DNA from: a bacterium
GTDB taxonomy: Bacteria > Methylomirabilota > Methylomirabilia > CAVQYV01
Assembly: GCA_043800755.1 (NCBI GenBank)
Contig: JAZDMQ010000076.1
Location: 1-56,319 of the forward strand
Direction of reading: 5' to 3'
Length of the DNA: 56,319 nt
Below, in pieces: positions 48,427-54,969 of the stretch. Numbering within the stretch: position 1 is the first letter of the stretch; every line of letters starts with the position of its first letter. The notes beneath the pieces are model-generated. The model searched no databases. It was not told the origin of the DNA and worked only from the letters and a program-made list of their open reading frames with translations. The translations under genes were made by a program, and so were the position numbers.

Positions 48427-49008
48427 TCAGGAGGCCTTGCCGGGGAAGAGTTCTTCTTCCACAATCTGGCAGATGATATGCCCAAGGGTCATGTGGGCCT
48501 CCTGGATGCGGGGGGTGGAACGGGAGGGGATGATCAGGGCCAGGTCGCAGATCGGCGCCAGCCCACCTCCATCACCTCCGGTGAAGGCCACCGTCTCGAT
48601 GCCTCGCTTGTGGGCCGCCTCCACCGCCCTGATCACATTGGCCGAGTTGCCGGAGGTAGAAATAGCGTAGAGGACATCCCCGGCCCTGCCCAGGGCCTCC
48701 AACTGTCGCGCAAAGACCTGGGAGAAATCGGAATCATTGCCGATGGCCGTCAGGATGGAGGTATCGGTGGTGAGGGCAATGGCAGCAAGGGCGGGGCGAT
48801 CAAAGAGGAAGCGGTTGACGAACTCGGCTGCCAGATGCTGGGCATCGGCTGCCGAGCCTCCATTGCCGCAAAGCAGGATCTGGTTCCCTCGCTTCAAGGC
48901 CTTTAGGGTCACCTCCACCACCTTGCCAATGTGCTCTATCTGATATCGGATCAGATCCTGTTTGACTGCCACACTTTCCTTGAGCAGCCGCTCGATCAGG
49001 ACCTTCAT
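48427..49008 (-). CDS. gmhA: Phosphoheptose isomerase (SIS domain)
   Basis: GNGGSAADAQH, ALTTD, GNDSDF, STSGNS, RIQEAH; SD GGAGG. Confidence 0.88.
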   Translation of the reverse strand: MKVLIERLLKESVAVKQDLIRYQIEHIGKVVEVTLKALKRGNQILLCGNGGSAADAQHLAAEFVNRFLFDRPALAAIALTTDTSILTAIGNDSDFSQVFARQLEALGRAGDVLYAISTSGNSANVIRAVEAAHKRGIETVAFTGGDGGGLAPICDLALIIPSRSTPRIQEAHMTLGHIICQIVEEELFPGKAS

Positions 49009-49319: not shown

Positions 49320-50207
49320 TTAGGCAACATGCAGACGGATATAGAGATTGCCCTGCCTCCCCTCTCCAGACCTCAATCCCTTCCCTGCGACGCGCAGGCG
49401 CATCCCGGGTCTCACCCCCGAGGGAACCTGAAGGAGGATCTTTTCCTCTCGACCATTGCGGACAAAGGAAAAGACCCGTTGACAGCCAATTAGGGCCTCC
49501 TGGGGAGAGATGCTCAGGTCACAGTAGAGGTCCTGCTGGCCTTTCTGGCTCCGCAAAACGCCCCAAAGACCGCTCAAAGAGTCAATGACTCCCCACTTCC
49601 ACCGCTTCCCTTGCTCCCTGAGCTGCCCCACCCAGAGTTGGAAGGGAGCGACCACCAGGCCCCGCCACAACAGGGAGGATATCTTGACCGGCGGGGGGTC
49701 TGAATAGGAATCCCCACCAGGGCTGCCGGGTCGATCCGCTCGAACGGAGCCGCCAGCAGGTGGAAAGCCGAATAGGGTCCCCTGGAAATAGAACCCCTGG
49801 CCTTGAGAGAAGACCCGGCGCAGGTACTCCTCATCGAAGCGCAGGCCAAAGGCCGCAAATTCCCGTTCCAGATCTGAAAAGAGATCCTGGGCACGGGAGT
49901 GGAAAGGAAAACCGGAAAAGGGATCCCCTGGCCGATACGAGAAAGGACCCTCGCGGTCCTGAGGAGCGCGGAAGTCCCCTCTTCCAGGACGACCCTGTTG
50001 CCCGGCTTGACCTTTACCCATGAGACAGGCATAGGCCTCGCTAATCTCTTTGAAACGCTCCTCCGCCGCCCTATCTCCCGGATTGCGATCAGGATGGCAG
50101 GCAAAGGCCAGCCTCCGGTAGGCCCTTTTGATCTCCTCCTCGCTGGCCCCCTCTTGCAGGCCCAGGACCTGATAGTAATCGGAGTAAGCTGCACCTTTCC
50201 TCTGCAT
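49320..50207 (-). CDS. J-domain (DnaJ/CbpA-like) protein
   Basis: DYYQVLG..HPDRN..F.EISEAY J domain, G/F region, one C-terminal DnaJ-type beta domain; no zinc finger; SD GAGGAGG. Confidence 0.88.
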
Positions 50208-50307: not shown

Positions 50308-50341
50308 AAAATGAAAGGGGCTATCCGAAGATAGCCCCTTT
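50308..50341 (-). terminator. Intrinsic terminator after the cyclase-family gene
   Basis: AAAGGGGCTATC-TTCG-GATAGCCCCTTT (cUUCGg tetraloop on the minus strand), then CATTTT. Confidence 0.85.
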
Positions 50342-50366: not shown

Positions 50367-52004
50367 CTATTCGATGGGGATATCCAGGCCCTCGAAGTAC
50401 CAGATGCGGGAATGGCTCCCCGAGCCAGCCTTGCCGTTGATGCAGGGCATGACGAAGGCGAAGCCCTTAGAGTTGGCCGCTTGCTGTAGGTCGCCGCCCA
50501 CATTCTCGGTGATATAGATGCCCTTGCCGAGCAGGGTCACATGGGTGATGTTGTTCTCCACATCGGTACCCTTGCCCCGCTGGCAGGTCATGGCGGCATC
50601 GATGCTGGTCACATCGGAGAGCGCACCCACGATGCCCTTATCCGCCAAATGCTTGGCCACATCCCCGCCGACGCCCGGGAAGGTGTAGGTCACCCAGTCA
50701 CGGTGGAATCCATTATTGTGCAGGGCCCACTTGTGCACCATATCCTGGGAGAAGCAGACGATGTCACCCTTGTTGACAGTGAGGCCGGGGTGCTTGCTCA
50801 TCCAATCTTTAAACATCGCCATATTGAAGATCCAGTCCCCTTCCTCCGGGCCGTACCGGGAGGCATTGATGATCAGGCAGGGGGCTGCCCAGTGCTGCAA
50901 GGGCACCTTGTCGATGGTCCATTGGGCGCCCTCTCTCCGGTGGGACGGGGAATCGGTATGGGTACCGAAGTGCTCGTTGCAGTAGAGCTGCTGCCCATAC
51001 CAGCCGTCATACTGGTAGTTGATCCAGGGATAGATCCCCCGGAAGTCATTGAGGCTGGGCACGCCAACCATGTTGCCCCCGAAGACGGCCGTCCAGATGT
51101 GCATCCCATTGCGGAGGTCGTTGGCCAGATCGAACATGGGGACCGCCATGAACTTCTTCTCCAGCTCCTTCATGGAGGCATAGGAGGCGGCCATCCCCTT
51201 CGCCTTGGTGTCATCCAGCGCGAAGACCCGGGTGGGGGCGCCGGAGCCCTGGTAGATCTTCATCGGTCCCAGGACCGCGAAGACCCACTTGTCTGCCACG
51301 GAGGGATCGAAGCGAATGTTCTCCAGGACCCAGATCAGGTTGCTGAACATGGCGCGATGGGCCAGGGGCTTGCCTTCATCCGCCACCCTCTTATAGGTGT
51401 CGATGGAGAGGACGTCCATGCCGAAGCCCTTGATCCGGCAATCCGCCATGTACTTGGCCGCGTCCTCGGTGATGCCGGGGAAGCCATACTTGATGAAGCG
51501 CTGGTTCTTGCCGGCGATATACTCATCCCAGTATTTGTCCCAGCCGGTCCACATGAAGATCATCGAGCGGGCCGCATCCCGCATCAGGTCGCAGCCGGTT
51601 TTCTGCTCCCAGGCCTTGATGTCGGCCAGGCTCACCTCGTAGCCATCCCGGTCCTTCACCCAGGGCCGCACGTCCATGATCACGGCCTTGCCGATGAACT
51701 TGTCCTGGGGAATTTGATCTAGTCGCCAGAAGCCATAAGGGTTATGGGACGGGCTATCCATGTGGGTACCGGTATGCTCGGTGAACTTGAGGTCATAGCC
51801 ATAGAAATTGGGGCCGACTTTATCGTAGCACTCCGCTTGGGTCTTGCATCCGCCCCACATACTCATACCTTCCCATTTGCCGGCCCAGGCGGGCATCCCG
51901 TTCTCGAATTTCTGGGTCAGGTCGACGATCTTGTAGGCCACGGCCGTCCCGGCAAACAGAGAAACCACGAATATCGCAGTGACAATCAACAATGCTCTTT
52001 TCAT
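50367..52004 (-). CDS. Secreted tandem-domain cyclase/kynurenine-formamidase-family metal hydrolase
   Basis: Signal peptide MKRALL..GTAVA; two HxGTHxDxPxH motifs (HTGTHMDSPSH, HFGTHTDSPSH), each with a downstream EN (LENI, TENV); SD AAGGAG. Confidence 0.85.
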   Translation of the reverse strand: MKRALLIVTAIFVVSLFAGTAVAYKIVDLTQKFENGMPAWAGKWEGMSMWGGCKTQAECYDKVGPNFYGYDLKFTEHTGTHMDSPSHNPYGFWRLDQIPQDKFIGKAVIMDVRPWVKDRDGYEVSLADIKAWEQKTGCDLMRDAARSMIFMWTGWDKYWDEYIAGKNQRFIKYGFPGITEDAAKYMADCRIKGFGMDVLSIDTYKRVADEGKPLAHRAMFSNLIWVLENIRFDPSVADKWVFAVLGPMKIYQGSGAPTRVFALDDTKAKGMAASYASMKELEKKFMAVPMFDLANDLRNGMHIWTAVFGGNMVGVPSLNDFRGIYPWINYQYDGWYGQQLYCNEHFGTHTDSPSHRREGAQWTIDKVPLQHWAAPCLIINASRYGPEEGDWIFNMAMFKDWMSKHPGLTVNKGDIVCFSQDMVHKWALHNNGFHRDWVTYTFPGVGGDVAKHLADKGIVGALSDVTSIDAAMTCQRGKGTDVENNITHVTLLGKGIYITENVGGDLQQAANSKGFAFVMPCINGKAGSGSHSRIWYFEGLDIPIE

Positions 52005-52324
52005 GAATTCACGCTCTCCTTCCTCGCTGGCCACAGAATCACAGCGGGGCCTGCCAATCCGTCTGGCGGCCTCACCATTACTCCAACGCGCCTATGGATC
52101 CTCTCTCACCTCCCTCCTCTTTGCCAAATTCCAGACAGGCAATTCCCCGAGGGCCCTCCCTCGAAAGAGAAGAATGGCCTCGCGGGACAGAAAATGGGAT
52201 TTAGAGACCGGGTGTCCTGTTCGGAAAGCTTTGGATCAGCGATAGGGAAGGTAATAGCGAGCGAGGCCCCTACACCTTTGCGTTCAACTAATGATACCTT
52301 TGATCCCAATTGTCAAGGGAAATC

Positions 52325-54022
52325 TTAGAAGGGCCGGAAGACGAGGTCCTTGATCCGCAACTGGAGGCTCTGATTGCCCTGATAGGCGTTAATGAAGGGA
52401 GAAAAGGCCAGATCGACCCGGGGAAGGCGGCCCTGGAGTTCTTCGCAGAGCTCGCCCATGCCGAATCCGATCGCCTCCAACACCTTTCCCCTGTTTCTTA
52501 CCCTCATTTTCAAGTGTCTCTCCCCGACCCGCCGGGGATACTTCATGACCTCCAATCCCCGGCTCGCCAGAGTCGGCTCAGGGTTCCCCAGTCCGTAGGG
52601 CTCAAGCGCCTTCATCTCCGTCACCAACTTGAAAGAGAGATCCTCCAGCGAGACCTCTCCGTCGAGGGCGACCGGGGAGAGGAAATCCTCTTCGGACAAG
52701 AGGGCTTCCGCCTCTTCCTGAAATCGTTCGAAAAAGGCGGGGACCTTCTCCCGGCTAATGGTGAATCCCGCAGCCTGGGAATGGCCTCCGAAGCCTTCGA
52801 GGAGGGGGGCGCACCTCTCCAGGGCCTGATTGACCGGAAAGGCCGGGATGCTCCGTGCGGACCCCCTCCCCTTCTCGCCCCCCAGGGCGACGATGACCAC
52901 GGGTCGGTGGTAGGCCTCGACCAACCGGGAGGCTATGATGCCGATCACCCCCACATGCCATCGCTCAGAGCATAGACAGATCGCCTTGGGCAGTTCCCCC
53001 TTGGCCTCCAGCATGGCATTCGTCTCCCCGATCGCTGCCCTCTCTATCGCCTGGCGTTCGCGATTCAACTCCTCCAGCAGGCGAGCCAGTTGTGAGGCCT
53101 CAGAGGCAGACTCGGTGCAGAGGAGGCGAAAGGCCAGGTCTGCCTCCTTCAATCTCCCTGCGGCATTGAGCCGGGGGCCCAGGACGAAAGCCACCTGACC
53201 CGCCCCCAGAGAAGAGTGGGAGAGGCCAGCCTCCTCCAGCAGGGCGCGAATTCCGGCCTTGGGCGATCTCTGCAACTGCCTCAGACCAAACTGGGCGAAG
53301 ACTCGGTTCTCGCCCCTCAGGGGCACCACATCGGCAATGGTGCCCAGGGCCACCAGATCGAGGTGCTCCTCCATATACCCTCCTCGCCCCATTGCCTCGG
53401 CCAGCGCCTGGCAGATCTTGAAGGCCACCCCGGCTGCGGCCAAGGACTTGAAGGGATAGGGACAGTCAAGGCGCTGCGGATTCAGGATCGCCACCGCGGA
53501 AGGGAGCTTCTCTCCAGGGAGGTGGTGGTCGCAGATGATCATGTCCATCCCCAGATCCTGGGCCAAGGCCGCCTCTCGTTCCGCATTGATGCCCTGGTCG
53601 ACGGCGATGATCAATCCCACCCCTTCCCCCTTGGCCCAGTGGATTACCTCCTCCTTTAGACCGTAGCCCTCCCGCACCCGATCCGGGAGATAGTGGATGA
53701 CATGGCCCCCCAACTCCCTCAGGAGATACCACATGAGGGCCATCCCCGTGATGCCATCCACATCGTAGTCCCCATAGAGGAGGATCTTCTCCTGGCGCGA
53801 AAGGGCAGAGCGCAGGCGTGCGACCGCAGGCTCCATATCCTGGAGCAGCGAAGGCTGATGGAGATCCTGCAAAGAGGGGGAGAGAAAGGCGCGGGCCTCA
53901 GAGGTGCTCTTGACGCCCCGATTAACGAGGATCTGAGCCAGCAGGGGATGAATCTCCAACTCCCTGGCGATCTCCTGCGCCTCTTTCGAATCCCCCTGGG
54001 GGAGACACCACCTTCTGCGCAT
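52325..54022 (-). CDS. recJ: ssDNA exonuclease RecJ
   Basis: YGDYDVDG, DHH, LGTIADVV, GPRLNAAGR, GSARS, GGH, PYGLGNPEP. Confidence 0.97.
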   Translation of the reverse strand: MRRRWCLPQGDSKEAQEIARELEIHPLLAQILVNRGVKSTSEARAFLSPSLQDLHQPSLLQDMEPAVARLRSALSRQEKILLYGDYDVDGITGMALMWYLLRELGGHVIHYLPDRVREGYGLKEEVIHWAKGEGVGLIIAVDQGINAEREAALAQDLGMDMIICDHHLPGEKLPSAVAILNPQRLDCPYPFKSLAAAGVAFKICQALAEAMGRGGYMEEHLDLVALGTIADVVPLRGENRVFAQFGLRQLQRSPKAGIRALLEEAGLSHSSLGAGQVAFVLGPRLNAAGRLKEADLAFRLLCTESASEASQLARLLEELNRERQAIERAAIGETNAMLEAKGELPKAICLCSERWHVGVIGIIASRLVEAYHRPVVIVALGGEKGRGSARSIPAFPVNQALERCAPLLEGFGGHSQAAGFTISREKVPAFFERFQEEAEALLSEEDFLSPVALDGEVSLEDLSFKLVTEMKALEPYGLGNPEPTLASRGLEVMKYPRRVGERHLKMRVRNRGKVLEAIGFGMGELCEELQGRLPRVDLAFSPFINAYQGNQSLQLRIKDLVFRPF

Positions 54023-54036
54023 GGGAGGCTCCGTGC

Positions 54037-54969
54037 CTATTTCTTCTTGCCAGTGGGCTTTACCTTCTTCACCCGCACCTGGCCAGGCCATTCCAATACG
54101 AGGGCACTGGCCACGAAGATCGATGAAAAGGTCCCCACAATGATCCCCATGGATATGGCGAGGGAGAAGTCATGGAGGACCTCCCCTCCCAAAAAGAGGA
54201 AGGAGAGAGTCACCAGGAAAACGGAGAGGCCGGTGACGATGGTGCGAGAGAGGACCTCGTTGATGCTGGAATTGATCACCAGACCCAATGGGTCTTTGCG
54301 CCTGGCCCTCAGGTTTTCCCGGATGCGGTCGAAGACCACGACCGTGTCGCTGAGGGAATAGCCCGCCAGGGTCAACAGGGCGGTCACCAGCAGAAGATTG
54401 ATCTCCTTTCCCATCAAATGAAAGACCCCAAACACCGCCAGGACATCATGGAAGGTGGCGATAGTGGCGGCGACACCGAACCGGAAATCGAAACGCCAGG
54501 CGATATAGATGAGGATTCCGATCATTGAGAGGACGATCGCCCAGGTCGCAGACCGACGCAGTCCTTTTCCGATCGCCGGTCCGATTTCGTCGCTGCCCTC
54601 CACCACGAAGGATCTTTCCGGGAGATTCGCCTTTAGGGCCTCCTGGATCTTGTCCAGCGTCCTGCTTTGCTGGGCGAATTCCTTCTTCACCCGGATGAGG
54701 ACCCGCGAGCTATCCGAGAACTGCTGCAGATTGCTCTCCGGGATATTGGCCTTGCCCAGGGCCTCCCGCACGGATCCCACCTCCACCGGCCCGTCGAACC
54801 TCAATTGCACCGAGGTCCCTCCTGCGAAATCGGTGCCCAAATTGGCATGTCCTCGGAATACTTGAATGATGGCGAAGAGGCCCAAGAGCACTAAGATGCC
54901 GGAAAGGGCAAAGGAATAATAACGCTTTCCCATGAAGTCGATCTTGGTCTTTCCCAGGATTTCAATCAT
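54037..54969 (-). CDS. secF: Protein translocase subunit SecF
   Basis: LGTDFAGG, FHDV, GYSLSDTVVVFDRIREN, SRT, GTFSSIF. Confidence 0.97.
   Translation of the reverse strand: MIEILGKTKIDFMGKRYYSFALSGILVLLGLFAIIQVFRGHANLGTDFAGGTSVQLRFDGPVEVGSVREALGKANIPESNLQQFSDSSRVLIRVKKEFAQQSRTLDKIQEALKANLPERSFVVEGSDEIGPAIGKGLRRSATWAIVLSMIGILIYIAWRFDFRFGVAATIATFHDVLAVFGVFHLMGKEINLLLVTALLTLAGYSLSDTVVVFDRIRENLRARRKDPLGLVINSSINEVLSRTIVTGLSVFLVTLSFLFLGGEVLHDFSLAISMGIIVGTFSSIFVASALVLEWPGQVRVKKVKPTGKKK

What the first reader, a model, noticed from the sequence alone, without database searches (positions are those of the whole stretch)
50367..52004. Exported two-domain cyclase/kynurenine-formamidase-family hydrolase as a stand-alone unit
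Seen: Sec-type signal, two diverged domains each keeping HxGTHxDxPxH and the downstream Glu, a CKTQAEC pair suited to a disulfide, own terminator and long leader. Known: KynB and isatin hydrolase are cytoplasmic single-domain metal amidohydrolases acting as oligomers. Inference: a fused pseudo-dimer with two possibly different active sites, hydrolysing an external amide or lactam (nutrient, signal or antimicrobial). It is the only gene here with no housekeeping explanation.
Basis: partly seen in the sequence, partly recalled or inferred. Interest (0 to 1): 0.62.

Follow-up and report, generated by a model that had tools for sequence, protein, structure and literature searches.

The report
Exported double cyclase-family metal hydrolase
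This is a real, transcribed gene for an exported enzyme made of two fused, diverged copies of the kynurenine-formamidase/isatin-hydrolase fold, each with a complete metal site; the architecture recurs in nature but has never been characterised, and its substrate is unknown.

Summary
Window 50367-52004 (minus strand) encodes a 545-aa protein. It has a Sec-type signal peptide (MKR, hydrophobic core, AVA|YK) and two PF04199 domains that are 26% identical to each other. Both keep HxGTHxDxPxH plus the later His and Glu, and all 12 residues are invariant in 27 orthologues. The AlphaFold model is one compact unit (pTM 0.87). Its nearest solved folds are isatin hydrolases, the cyclase-phosphotriesterase C-PTE and KynB.

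The gene has its own terminator hairpin and a conserved leader of about 200 nt or more. Sediment metatranscriptome contigs cover it.

It is not KynB. It scores 57 bits against a 223-bit cut-off, the genome has no tryptophan dioxygenase, and the protein is exported. It also departs from isatin hydrolase at the Glu ligand and one pocket Trp.

The CKTQAEC cysteine pair is not conserved.

My best reading is a periplasmic or secreted single-chain pseudo-heterodimer with two probably binuclear hydrolytic sites, acting on an unidentified small carbonyl or phosphoryl substrate. Orthologues are rare: 2 of 201 genomes in the phylum, plus Deltaproteobacteria, which suggests horizontal transfer. Interest is moderate.

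The parts
50367..52004 (-). CDS of the 545-aa exported tandem cyclase-family protein (stop codon 50367-50369)
   Evidence: orthologues 70-97% identical over the full length
51936..52004 (-). Sec-type signal peptide, residues 1-23 (MKRALLIVTAIFVVSLFAGTAVA, predicted cut before YK)
   Evidence: Sequence inspection; conserved n/h/c layout in orthologues; Pfam domain begins at residue 27
51201..51935 (-). N-terminal PF04199 domain, residues 24-268. Metal/catalytic residues H77, H81, D83, H87, H216, E228. Swapped-hairpin region is about residues 44-75, including the non-conserved C53/C59.
51744..51776 (-). Motif 1, HTGTHMDSPSH (residues 77-87)
   Evidence: invariant H/H/D/H in 27 orthologues
51138..51200 (-). 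Interdomain linker with a helix (residues 269-289; helix 271-286 in the model)
   Evidence: Inferred to correspond to the N-terminal exchanged helix of isatin hydrolase dimers (PMC6117287).
50370..51137 (-). C-terminal, strongly diverged PF04199 domain, residues 290-545. Residues H345, H349, D351, H355, H488, E500. Beta-hairpin 324-342. Conserved tail FEGLDIPIE.
50940..50972 (-). Motif 2, HFGTHTDSPSH (residues 345-355)
50314..50341 (-). Terminator-like hairpin (AAAGGGGCUAUC-UUCG-GAUAGCCCCUUU) followed by CAUUUU
   Evidence: MFE -31.9 kcal/mol, z -2.56. Coverage in runs X14 and X16 stops near 50400.
52005..52324 (-). 320-nt intergenic leader/promoter region between the recJ stop and the ATG. 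SD AAGGAG lies at 52014-52019. A TTGACA -35-like hexamer lies at 52311-52316 (candidate only).
   Evidence: RNA contigs reach 52196 and 52219. The sigma-70 consensus scan found no promoter.
52102..52115 (-). Conserved purine box AGGGAGGTGAGAGA, about 100-110 nt upstream of the ATG, function unknown
   Evidence: Conserved in leaders of NC10-lineage loci and of L101, L109 and L112. It is the only exact match in the window.

Best explanation
The gene encodes a Sec-exported enzyme, periplasmic or further secreted. It is a single-chain pseudo-heterodimer of two cyclase-family (PF04199) metal-hydrolase domains.

An internal duplication in the family's ancestor fused what is normally an obligate domain-swapped homodimer. 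After cleavage of the signal peptide, the two halves pack as the homodimer does. Each half provides a His/His/Asp/His + His + Glu centre, which is the ligand set of the binuclear Zn enzymes KynB and C-PTE. The beta-hairpin of the other half closes its pocket. Because the C-terminal half has diverged strongly, the two composite active sites are no longer equivalent.

Each site activates a metal-bound water or hydroxide to hydrolyse a small carbonyl or phosphoryl compound outside the cytoplasm. The candidates are an aryl or cyclic amide, a lactone, an ester or a phosphotriester. The actual substrate is unknown.

The gene is a self-contained unit with its own leader and terminator, and in some lineages it sits next to a PAS-kinase/NarL-type regulator pair.

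Shown: the domain architecture, conserved ligands, fold, signal-peptide features, transcription and distribution.
Inferred: export, metal stoichiometry, hairpin swapping, activity of both sites, and the reaction type.
For: - Two PF04199 domains; intra-protein similarity 26%, E 5e-18.
- All 12 ligand/catalytic residues are invariant in 27 orthologues, including the 41-47% identical subclade. The N and C domains are equally conserved, for example 78-81% each in the Deltaproteobacteria and same-family orthologues.
- The AF2 model has pLDDT 83 and pTM 0.87. Foldseek top hits are 4m8d, 8f9x, 5nna, 5nmp and KynB, at probability 1.0.
- H488 and E500 align with the His and Glu of binuclear C-PTE. E228 aligns to a Gln in mononuclear isatin hydrolase A.
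- Family dimers are domain-swapped, with hairpin residues of the partner in the pocket (PMC6117287, PMC12135135). The equivalent positions here are F67-Y-G69 and W335-Y-G337.
- A tree with N and C domains of this family as one clade is not rejected and has the higher likelihood.
- The signal peptide is conserved in all full-length orthologues.
- Among 50%-identity representatives, 13 of 16 tandem proteins have an N-terminal signal-like segment, against 50 of 120 single-domain ones (Fisher p 0.003).
- Contigs from metatranscriptome runs X14, X16, X19 and X28 lie on the gene.
- There is a terminator hairpin.
- An orthologous PAS-HisKA_3 kinase plus NarL-type regulator sits next to two different subclade members.
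Against: - No biochemical data exist for any tandem member.
- No conserved operon partner points to a substrate.
- Model coordinates could not be inspected, so the hairpin swap and pocket geometry are inferred from homologues.
- The hairpin tips are the least confident part of the model (residues 51-67 and 311-318).
- Conserved ligands do not prove that both sites turn over substrate.
- The signal-peptide call rests on inspection and a crude rule, not on SignalP or experiment.
- RNA evidence comes from assembled contigs of strains mostly 95-97% identical. It shows presence only, and relative expression cannot be quantified.
Confidence: 0.7

Rival explanations
1. Only one of the two domains is catalytic. 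The other keeps its metal site for structural reasons and serves mainly as the partner that donates the pocket-closing hairpin, making it a pseudo-enzyme half.
For: - The C-terminal domain lies on a very long branch (length 1.02).
- It has lost the family's TGW motif after the central strand (FSQDMVHKW instead of WTGWDKYW).
- A distant tandem relative, P0034, has a degenerate second motif.
- Earlier first-stage notes on other genomes describe tandem cyclases with one degenerate half.
Against: - All six ligand/catalytic residues of each domain are invariant in 27 orthologues.
- Both domains evolve at the same rate within the family. This is not expected of a purely structural half.
Confidence: 0.15
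2. It is an ordinary kynurenine formamidase or isatin hydrolase that happens to be duplicated and exported. For example, it could open isatin formed during anaerobic indole degradation.
For: - The best sequence and fold matches are isatin hydrolases.
- JGI annotation of orthologues reads 'kynurenine formamidase'.
- From my own knowledge, untested here: anaerobic indole degradation in sulfate reducers and denitrifiers is reported to pass through isatin.
Against: - The TIGR03035 arylformamidase equivalog scores 57 bits against a cut-off of 223.
- The genome has no tryptophan 2,3-dioxygenase, while the control genomes matched.
- N-formylkynurenine is a cytoplasmic intermediate, but this protein has a signal peptide.
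- The Glu at 228/500 is a Gln in isatin hydrolase A.
- One of the two pocket tryptophans donated by the partner hairpin is Gly in both halves.
- Identity to isatin hydrolases is only 22-25%.
Confidence: 0.08
3. It is not a simple hydrolase of amides or esters. Instead it catalyses a retro-Claisen C-C cleavage or a cyclisation (as DPGC or DpsY-type 'cyclases' do), or it serves mainly as a periplasmic metal-binding protein.
For: - PF04199 includes the Mn-dependent dihydrophloroglucinol cyclohydrolase and proposed polyketide cyclases (PMC10470551).
- In the deltaproteobacterial locus L101 the gene is surrounded by three Nramp-type transporter genes.
- In L110 it lies near two MR_MLE enolase-superfamily genes and a DUF362 gene.
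Against: - These neighbourhoods are not conserved between lineages.
- DPGC acts in a cytoplasmic pathway with NADPH- and CoA-dependent partners.
- Nothing in the sequence separates these chemistries from hydrolysis.
Confidence: 0.07

Closest known systems
Isatin hydrolases IH-A/IH-B (Labrenzia aggregata, Ralstonia solanacearum; PDB 4M8D, 4J0N, 5NNA, 5NNB, 5NMP)
   Same: Best sequence hits (E 5e-19) and best fold hits. They share the HxGTHxDxPxH motif and the later catalytic His. They are domain-swapped dimers in which the partner hairpin builds the pocket (PMC6117287).
   Different: They have a single domain of about 260 aa. They hold one Mn, with Gln where this protein has Glu228 and Glu500. 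The hairpin Trp59/Trp61 pair becomes F67/G69 and W335/G337 here. Identity is only 22-25%. This protein has two fused, non-identical halves behind a Sec signal.
Kynurenine formamidase KynB (PDB 4CO9, 4COB, 4COG; NCBIfam TIGR03035)
   Same: Same fold. Same full ligand set His, His, Asp, His + His + Glu, which binds two Zn ions in KynB (PMC5341072, PMC6117287).
   Different: The TIGR03035 score is far below the cut-off (57 versus 223 bits). The genome has no tryptophan dioxygenase. KynB is a cytoplasmic homodimer of about 210-aa chains, whereas this protein is exported and fused.
Cyclase-phosphotriesterase C-PTE of Ruegeria pomeroyi (PDB 8F9X)
   Same: Second-best fold match (TM 0.79-0.84 on the target). 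It aligns over the whole C-terminal domain, including His488 and Glu500. It has a binuclear Zn site and is a domain-swapped dimer (PMC12135135).
   Different: It has a single domain. Its substrates are anthropogenic phosphotriesters plus isatin. Identity is 21-22%. There is no evidence here for phosphotriesterase activity.
Other uncharacterised tandem PF04199 proteins (for example P0037/P0038 with C-terminal membrane anchors, lipoprotein P0045, P0050, P0059, eukaryote-like P0041-P0043, and this genome's own second tandem gene at C45:15058-16887)
   Same: Two cyclase domains in one chain, nearly always behind an N-terminal signal.
   Different: They come from independent duplications. In most of them the N and C halves are each other's closest relatives. 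In this family the C half has diverged far from the N half, yet keeps every ligand.

Membership tests
Pfam PF04199 'putative cyclase' (KynB / isatin hydrolase superfamily) | Profile match above the gathering score | tested here: met
   194.8 bits against a cut-off of 23.1, with two stretches. The genome search scored each half at 117.5 and 83.4 bits.
Pfam PF04199 'putative cyclase' (KynB / isatin hydrolase superfamily) | HxGTHxDxPxH metal motif plus downstream His and acidic residue | tested here: met
   Present in both halves and invariant in 27 orthologues.
Pfam PF04199 'putative cyclase' (KynB / isatin hydrolase superfamily) | Swivelling beta/beta/alpha-type fold of IH/KynB | tested here: met
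   AF2 model pLDDT 83. Foldseek probability 1.0 to 34 chains of the family, and nothing else below E 0.01.
Pfam PF04199 'putative cyclase' (KynB / isatin hydrolase superfamily) | Dimer with exchanged hairpin completing the partner's pocket | not testable with these tools
   pTM 0.87 indicates a defined two-domain packing.
Kynurenine formamidase KynB (TIGR03035 equivalog) | Equivalog score above the curated cut-off | tested here: not met
   57.3 bits against 223.05.
Kynurenine formamidase KynB (TIGR03035 equivalog) | Pathway context: tryptophan 2,3-dioxygenase in the genome | tested here: not met
   PF03301 is absent from the 100%-complete genome. Controls matched in Caulobacter and Deinococcus.
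Kynurenine formamidase KynB (TIGR03035 equivalog) | Cytoplasmic location with its substrate | tested here: not met
   A conserved Sec-type signal peptide is present. Judged by sequence only.
Isatin hydrolase (EC 3.5.2.20) | Mononuclear Mn site (Gln rather than Glu after the second-shell His) | tested here: not met
   E228 aligns to Gln of RsIHA. E500 aligns to Glu of binuclear C-PTE.
Isatin hydrolase (EC 3.5.2.20) | Two partner-hairpin tryptophans lining the isatin pocket (Trp59, Trp61 in LaIHA) | tested here: not met
   The aligned residues are F67/G69 in the N half and W335/G337 in the C half (PMC6117287).
Isatin hydrolase (EC 3.5.2.20) | Isatin hydrolysis | not testable with these tools
   Needs an enzyme assay.
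Sec-exported protein (signal peptidase I substrate) | Positive n-region, hydrophobic h-region, small residues at -3/-1, no lipobox Cys, no twin-Arg | tested here: met
   MKR / LLIVTAIFVVSLFAGT / AVA|Y, conserved in orthologues. No dedicated predictor or experiment was available.

The most novel reading that the evidence does not exclude
Fusing the two protomers of an obligate domain-swapped dimer into one chain may be a recurrent, convergent adaptation of this enzyme family to life outside the cytoplasm. A fused chain guarantees assembly after unfolded Sec transport and in dilute surroundings.

In this particular family the fusion then freed the two composite active sites to specialise. One exported polypeptide would then carry out two different reactions on an environmental compound, perhaps sequentially. 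Expression in some lineages would be controlled by a dedicated PAS-kinase/NarL system and a conserved leader element.
Probability: 0.25. Interest if true: 0.6.

Novelty: new variant of a known kind. Interest (0 to 1): 0.4.

Why it matters
PF04199 is a small fold with a growing list of chemistries: formamidase, lactamase, esterase, dienelactone hydrolase, phosphotriesterase and C-C hydrolase. Every characterised member is a single-domain homodimer.

Here an exported, single-chain, asymmetric version keeps both metal sites under strong selection. It is transcribed in anoxic sediments and occurs in at least two bacterial phyla at about 78% identity. Similar fusions arose independently in bacteria, probable archaea and probable eukaryotes.

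Characterising one member would annotate a class of extracytoplasmic hydrolases that is now mislabelled 'kynurenine formamidase'. It would also test how fusion of a swapped dimer permits active-site specialisation. It could further reveal a new extracellular step in the turnover of N-heterocycles, lactones or organophosphates. This would extend known enzymology rather than define a new kind of system.

Tried and rejected
It returned no close orthologue, so contexts came from the look-up of encoding contigs instead.
2. Conserved operon partner: none was found across 10 contexts. Unknown neighbours had no Pfam hits.
3. Riboswitch or structured leader: no credible Rfam hit, only two sub-threshold snoRNA-family matches inside the coding region. 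The leader folds no better than shuffles (z 0.25), and RNAalifold finds no consensus pairs.
4. A sigma-70 promoter scan of the region found nothing. The TTGACA after recJ is only a candidate.
5. Disulfide staple from CKTQAEC: rejected as a family feature.
6. KynB role: rejected.
7. Methanotrophy marker: the PF02461 search was uninformative because no control matched.
8. 'Much more expressed than its neighbours': in X14, X16 and X28 the gene is the best-covered stretch of 20 kb. However, those contigs come from strains mostly 95-97% identical, whose neighbouring genes may fall under the 90% threshold. In X25, which holds the same strain, the gene is not favoured. I therefore claim only that it is transcribed.
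9. Fusion of two different paralogues rather than an internal duplication: not needed. The constrained tree with N and C together is at least as good.
10. Literature search for tandem or secreted cyclase-family enzymes found nothing relevant.
Full report
**The object**

An ORF of 545 codons runs on the minus strand from ATG 52004 to the stop at 50367-50369. A GTG ten codons upstream is also open. However, all orthologues begin at the MK(R/K) aligned with 52004, and an AAGGAG lies 9 nt before that ATG.

The gene lies between recJ (52325-54091) upstream and a short DnaJ-like gene (49320-50207) downstream, all on the minus strand. It sits in a run of housekeeping and envelope genes: secD, secF, recJ, gmhA-like SIS, BamD-like TPR, a D-Ala-D-Ala carboxypeptidase, a LysM protein, dprA and topA. 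GC content is that of the surroundings.

**Checking the observation**

- Pfam finds PF04199 twice, E 9.7e-58.
- The halves (about residues 24-268 and 290-545) align to each other at 26% identity, E 5e-18.
- Each half has the full signature: H77-x3-H81-x-D83-x3-H87 with H216 and E228, and H345-x3-H349-x-D351-x3-H355 with H488 and E500.
- In an alignment of 27 full-length orthologues, all twelve residues are invariant. This includes a second subclade only 41-47% identical. The two halves are conserved to the same degree.
- The N-terminus is MKR, then a 16-19 residue hydrophobic core, then AVA|YK. That is a standard signal peptidase I substrate with no lipobox and no twin arginine. The Pfam domain starts at residue 27. 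Every complete orthologue has the same layout.
- A GC-rich hairpin with a UUCG loop followed by UUUCAUUUU lies 26 nt after the stop codon (MFE -31.9 kcal/mol, z -2.6).
- The upstream intergenic region is 320 nt.

The one detail that does not hold as a family feature is the CKTQAEC pair. Cys53 is present in 13 of 27 orthologues and Cys59 in 17 of 27. The pair sits at the tip of a loop that is the least confident part of the model.

**Fold**

AlphaFold2, run on a 15-sequence alignment, gives mean pLDDT 83 and pTM 0.87. That means one compact body rather than two beads on a string.

Foldseek against the PDB returns only family members at significant scores. These are isatin hydrolase B (4M8D, 4J0N), the cyclase-phosphotriesterase C-PTE (8F9X), isatin hydrolase A (5NNA, 5NMP), Bacillus 'metal-dependent hydrolases' (8HMO, 1R61, 3KRV), KynB (4COG, 4CO9, 4COB), MJ0783 and the esterase-type 5IBZ. 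Each covers one half of the query (TM about 0.37 on the query, 0.7-0.84 on the target). No solved structure has two such domains in one chain.

**Why a fused pseudo-dimer is the natural reading**

Isatin hydrolases and C-PTE are domain-swapped dimers. A beta-hairpin, and in isatin hydrolases also a short N-terminal helix, crosses over and supplies pocket residues to the other protomer. In LaIHA these are Trp59 and Trp61; in C-PTE, Phe82 (PMC6117287, PMC12135135).

In the HMMER alignments these positions correspond to F67/G69 in the N half and W335/G337 in the C half. The model has strands at 47-50 and 69-75 flanking a long loop in the N half. It has a clean hairpin at 324-342 in the C half, and a helix at 271-286 in the linker.

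I could not inspect coordinates, so the swap itself is inferred.

**Metal site**

The residue twelve positions after the second-shell His is Glu in both halves. It aligns to Gln in mononuclear Mn isatin hydrolase A and to Glu in binuclear Zn C-PTE. KynB also has the His/Glu pair and binds two Zn ions (PMC5341072). Two binuclear centres per chain is therefore the most likely state. This is inferred, not shown.

**What it is not**

- The arylformamidase equivalog TIGR03035 scores 57 bits against a cut-off of 223.
- The genome is 100% complete by the tool's estimate and has no tryptophan 2,3-dioxygenase, while the control genomes matched.
- An exported enzyme would not meet cytoplasmic N-formylkynurenine.
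- The isatin hydrolase pocket and metal features are not kept (see above).

The JGI label 'kynurenine formamidase' on orthologues is therefore an over-annotation.

**Distribution**

The word-indexed search finds 35 clusters. About 25 of them are full-length orthologues at 70-97% identity, with sources named as candidate division NC10, Deltaproteobacteria and Desulfatiglandales. There is also a 41-47% subclade and a few more distant tandem proteins.

The exhaustive search of 1.84 billion representatives gives 2,676 family hits, but only two representatives above 40% identity.

Within the window's own phylum, only 2 of 201 sampled genomes carry the orthologue: this one and one from the same family. 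PF04199 as such is multi-copy in many genomes of the class.

The deltaproteobacterial copy is 78% identical, the same as the copy in the sister genus of the same family. This points to horizontal transfer.

**Genomic context**

- In the NC10-type lineage the gene sits at a fixed place, recJ - gene - (variable slot) - gmhA (L102, L108, L111). The slot holds the DnaJ-like gene here and in L111, nothing in L102, and an unknown gene in L108.
- Elsewhere the neighbours differ.
- One association does recur. Orthologous PAS-HisKA_3 kinase and NarL-type regulator genes (61% and 83% identical) lie just upstream of a member of each subclade, in L109 and L112, across intergenic regions of 780 and 905 nt. 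This suggests inducible expression in that lineage. The window's genome has no orthologue of this pair.

**Origin of the two halves**

In a domain tree of 24 tandem and 33 single-domain proteins, most tandem proteins have N and C halves as sisters. That implies many independent duplications, or concerted evolution.

In this family the seven C halves form a 100%-supported clade on a branch of length 1.02, away from the N halves. Constraining the N and C halves of the family to one clade gives a higher likelihood than the unconstrained search, with p-AU 0.64. A single internal duplication before the two subclades split, followed by rapid divergence of the C half, therefore fits the data.

Among the 50%-identity representatives, 13 of 16 tandem proteins begin with a signal-like hydrophobic segment, against 50 of 120 single-domain ones (Fisher p 0.003). 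The test is crude and the sample was selected by similarity to an exported query, so I treat this as a lead only.

It does show that export is common in the family. This genome alone has at least two further PF04199 genes with clear signal peptides, one of them a second, unrelated tandem, plus two copies truncated at contig ends.

**Transcription**

Eight sediment metatranscriptome runs from at least four studies share words with the gene. I laid five of them on the window. Contigs from X14, X16, X19 and X28 cover the gene, mostly at 95-97% identity.

Two of these contigs continue into the leader, to 52196 and 52219, which is 192-215 nt before the ATG. In X14 and X16 coverage ends near 50400, just before the terminator.

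Relative expression cannot be judged from these contigs (see Tried and rejected).

**The leader**

The leader is conserved in the NC10-type loci. It shares a purine box (consensus RRGGRGGTGAG, here 52102-52115) with loci L101, L109 and L112, the last of which carries the second protein subclade. The box is the only exact match in the window.

The leader has no credible Rfam match, no excess folding energy and no consensus structure. Its role is unexplained.

**Function**

Characterised PF04199 enzymes hydrolyse N-formylkynurenine, isatin, carboxyl esters, trans-dienelactone, phosphotriesters and the C-C bond of dihydrophloroglucinol. All use a metal-activated water (PMC5341072, PMC6117287, PMC12135135, PMC10470551).

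The sequence therefore fixes the mechanism class but not the substrate. I commit to the following: an extracytoplasmic, single-chain pseudo-heterodimeric metallohydrolase with two non-equivalent active sites, acting on a small carbonyl or phosphoryl compound available outside the cell.

**Verdict**

It is unproven in chemistry, and the singularity was overstated. This is a new, well-conserved variant within a known enzyme superfamily, of moderate interest.

Noticed in passing
own genome C45:15058-16887 (+), C45:24243-25220 (-), C87:1-918, C81:3-620, C126/C72: The genome holds several more PF04199 genes. One is a second, unrelated exported tandem protein (motifs SHTATHYDSPQH and EHPGTHYDAPTH). 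One is an exported single-domain protein with a variant motif (HTGCHMDSLAH). Two copies are truncated at contig ends. One cytoplasmic-looking copy is split across two contigs. In the metagenomic locus L109, an exported single-domain relative of the C45 tandem (42% identical) lies 1.1 kb downstream of an orthologue of the gene studied here.
   Followed up: partly
window 52102-52115 (-); L101, L102, L108, L109, L111, L112 leaders: A purine-rich, Shine-Dalgarno-like box (RRGGRGGTGAGRRA) lies about 100-125 nt upstream of the start codon and is conserved with the gene across phyla. Genome-wide there are 12 exact matches. Two of them lie 72 and 126 nt upstream of other genes for exported proteins (C27, C108). 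No structure or function was found.
   Followed up: partly
window 49320-50207 (-): A short DnaJ-like protein (J domain plus a fragment of DnaJ_C, no zinc-finger region) occupies a variable slot between the cyclase gene and gmhA. It is present in L111, absent in L102, and replaced by an unrelated 367-aa gene on the other strand in L108.
   Followed up: partly
L101:531-1994 and L101:10090-11553: In the deltaproteobacterial genome, the orthologue is bracketed by two 84%-identical 487-aa multi-pass membrane proteins with no Pfam hit, whose sequence looks Nramp-like by eye. A canonical Nramp, an aldehyde:ferredoxin oxidoreductase and an OYE-type flavoenzyme lie nearby. The window's genome has 57-58% identical homologues on C67 and C27, not near the cyclase gene.
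   Followed up: partly
L110:4261-8419: Another orthologue (P0017) lies beside two MR_MLE enolase-superfamily genes and a DUF362 gene. DUF362 is the family that an earlier agent described as exported LarA-like paralogues in this same genome.
   Followed up: no
L107:349-10585: A distant tandem relative (P0034, 33% identical) has a degenerate second motif. It sits in an apparent operon with a heparinase II/III-like protein, a metallo-beta-lactamase-fold protein, a GFO/IDH/MocA oxidoreductase, a HEAT-repeat protein and a BcrAD/BadFG-type ATPase. This hints at a polysaccharide-related role for that branch.
   Followed up: no
residues 536-545 (window 50370-50399): The C-terminal tail (W)YFEGL(D/N)IPIE is almost invariant in the orthologues and becomes YFEGLELPELE in the second subclade. 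A conserved acidic tail on an exported enzyme might be a sorting or partner-binding signal, or might reach into an active site.
   Followed up: no
window 48517-48749 (gmhA-like gene): RNA-run contigs in X19 and X25 join 48517 to 48749, skipping 231 nt inside the SIS-domain gene. This could be a strain variant, an assembly artefact, or a sequence from another organism.
   Followed up: no
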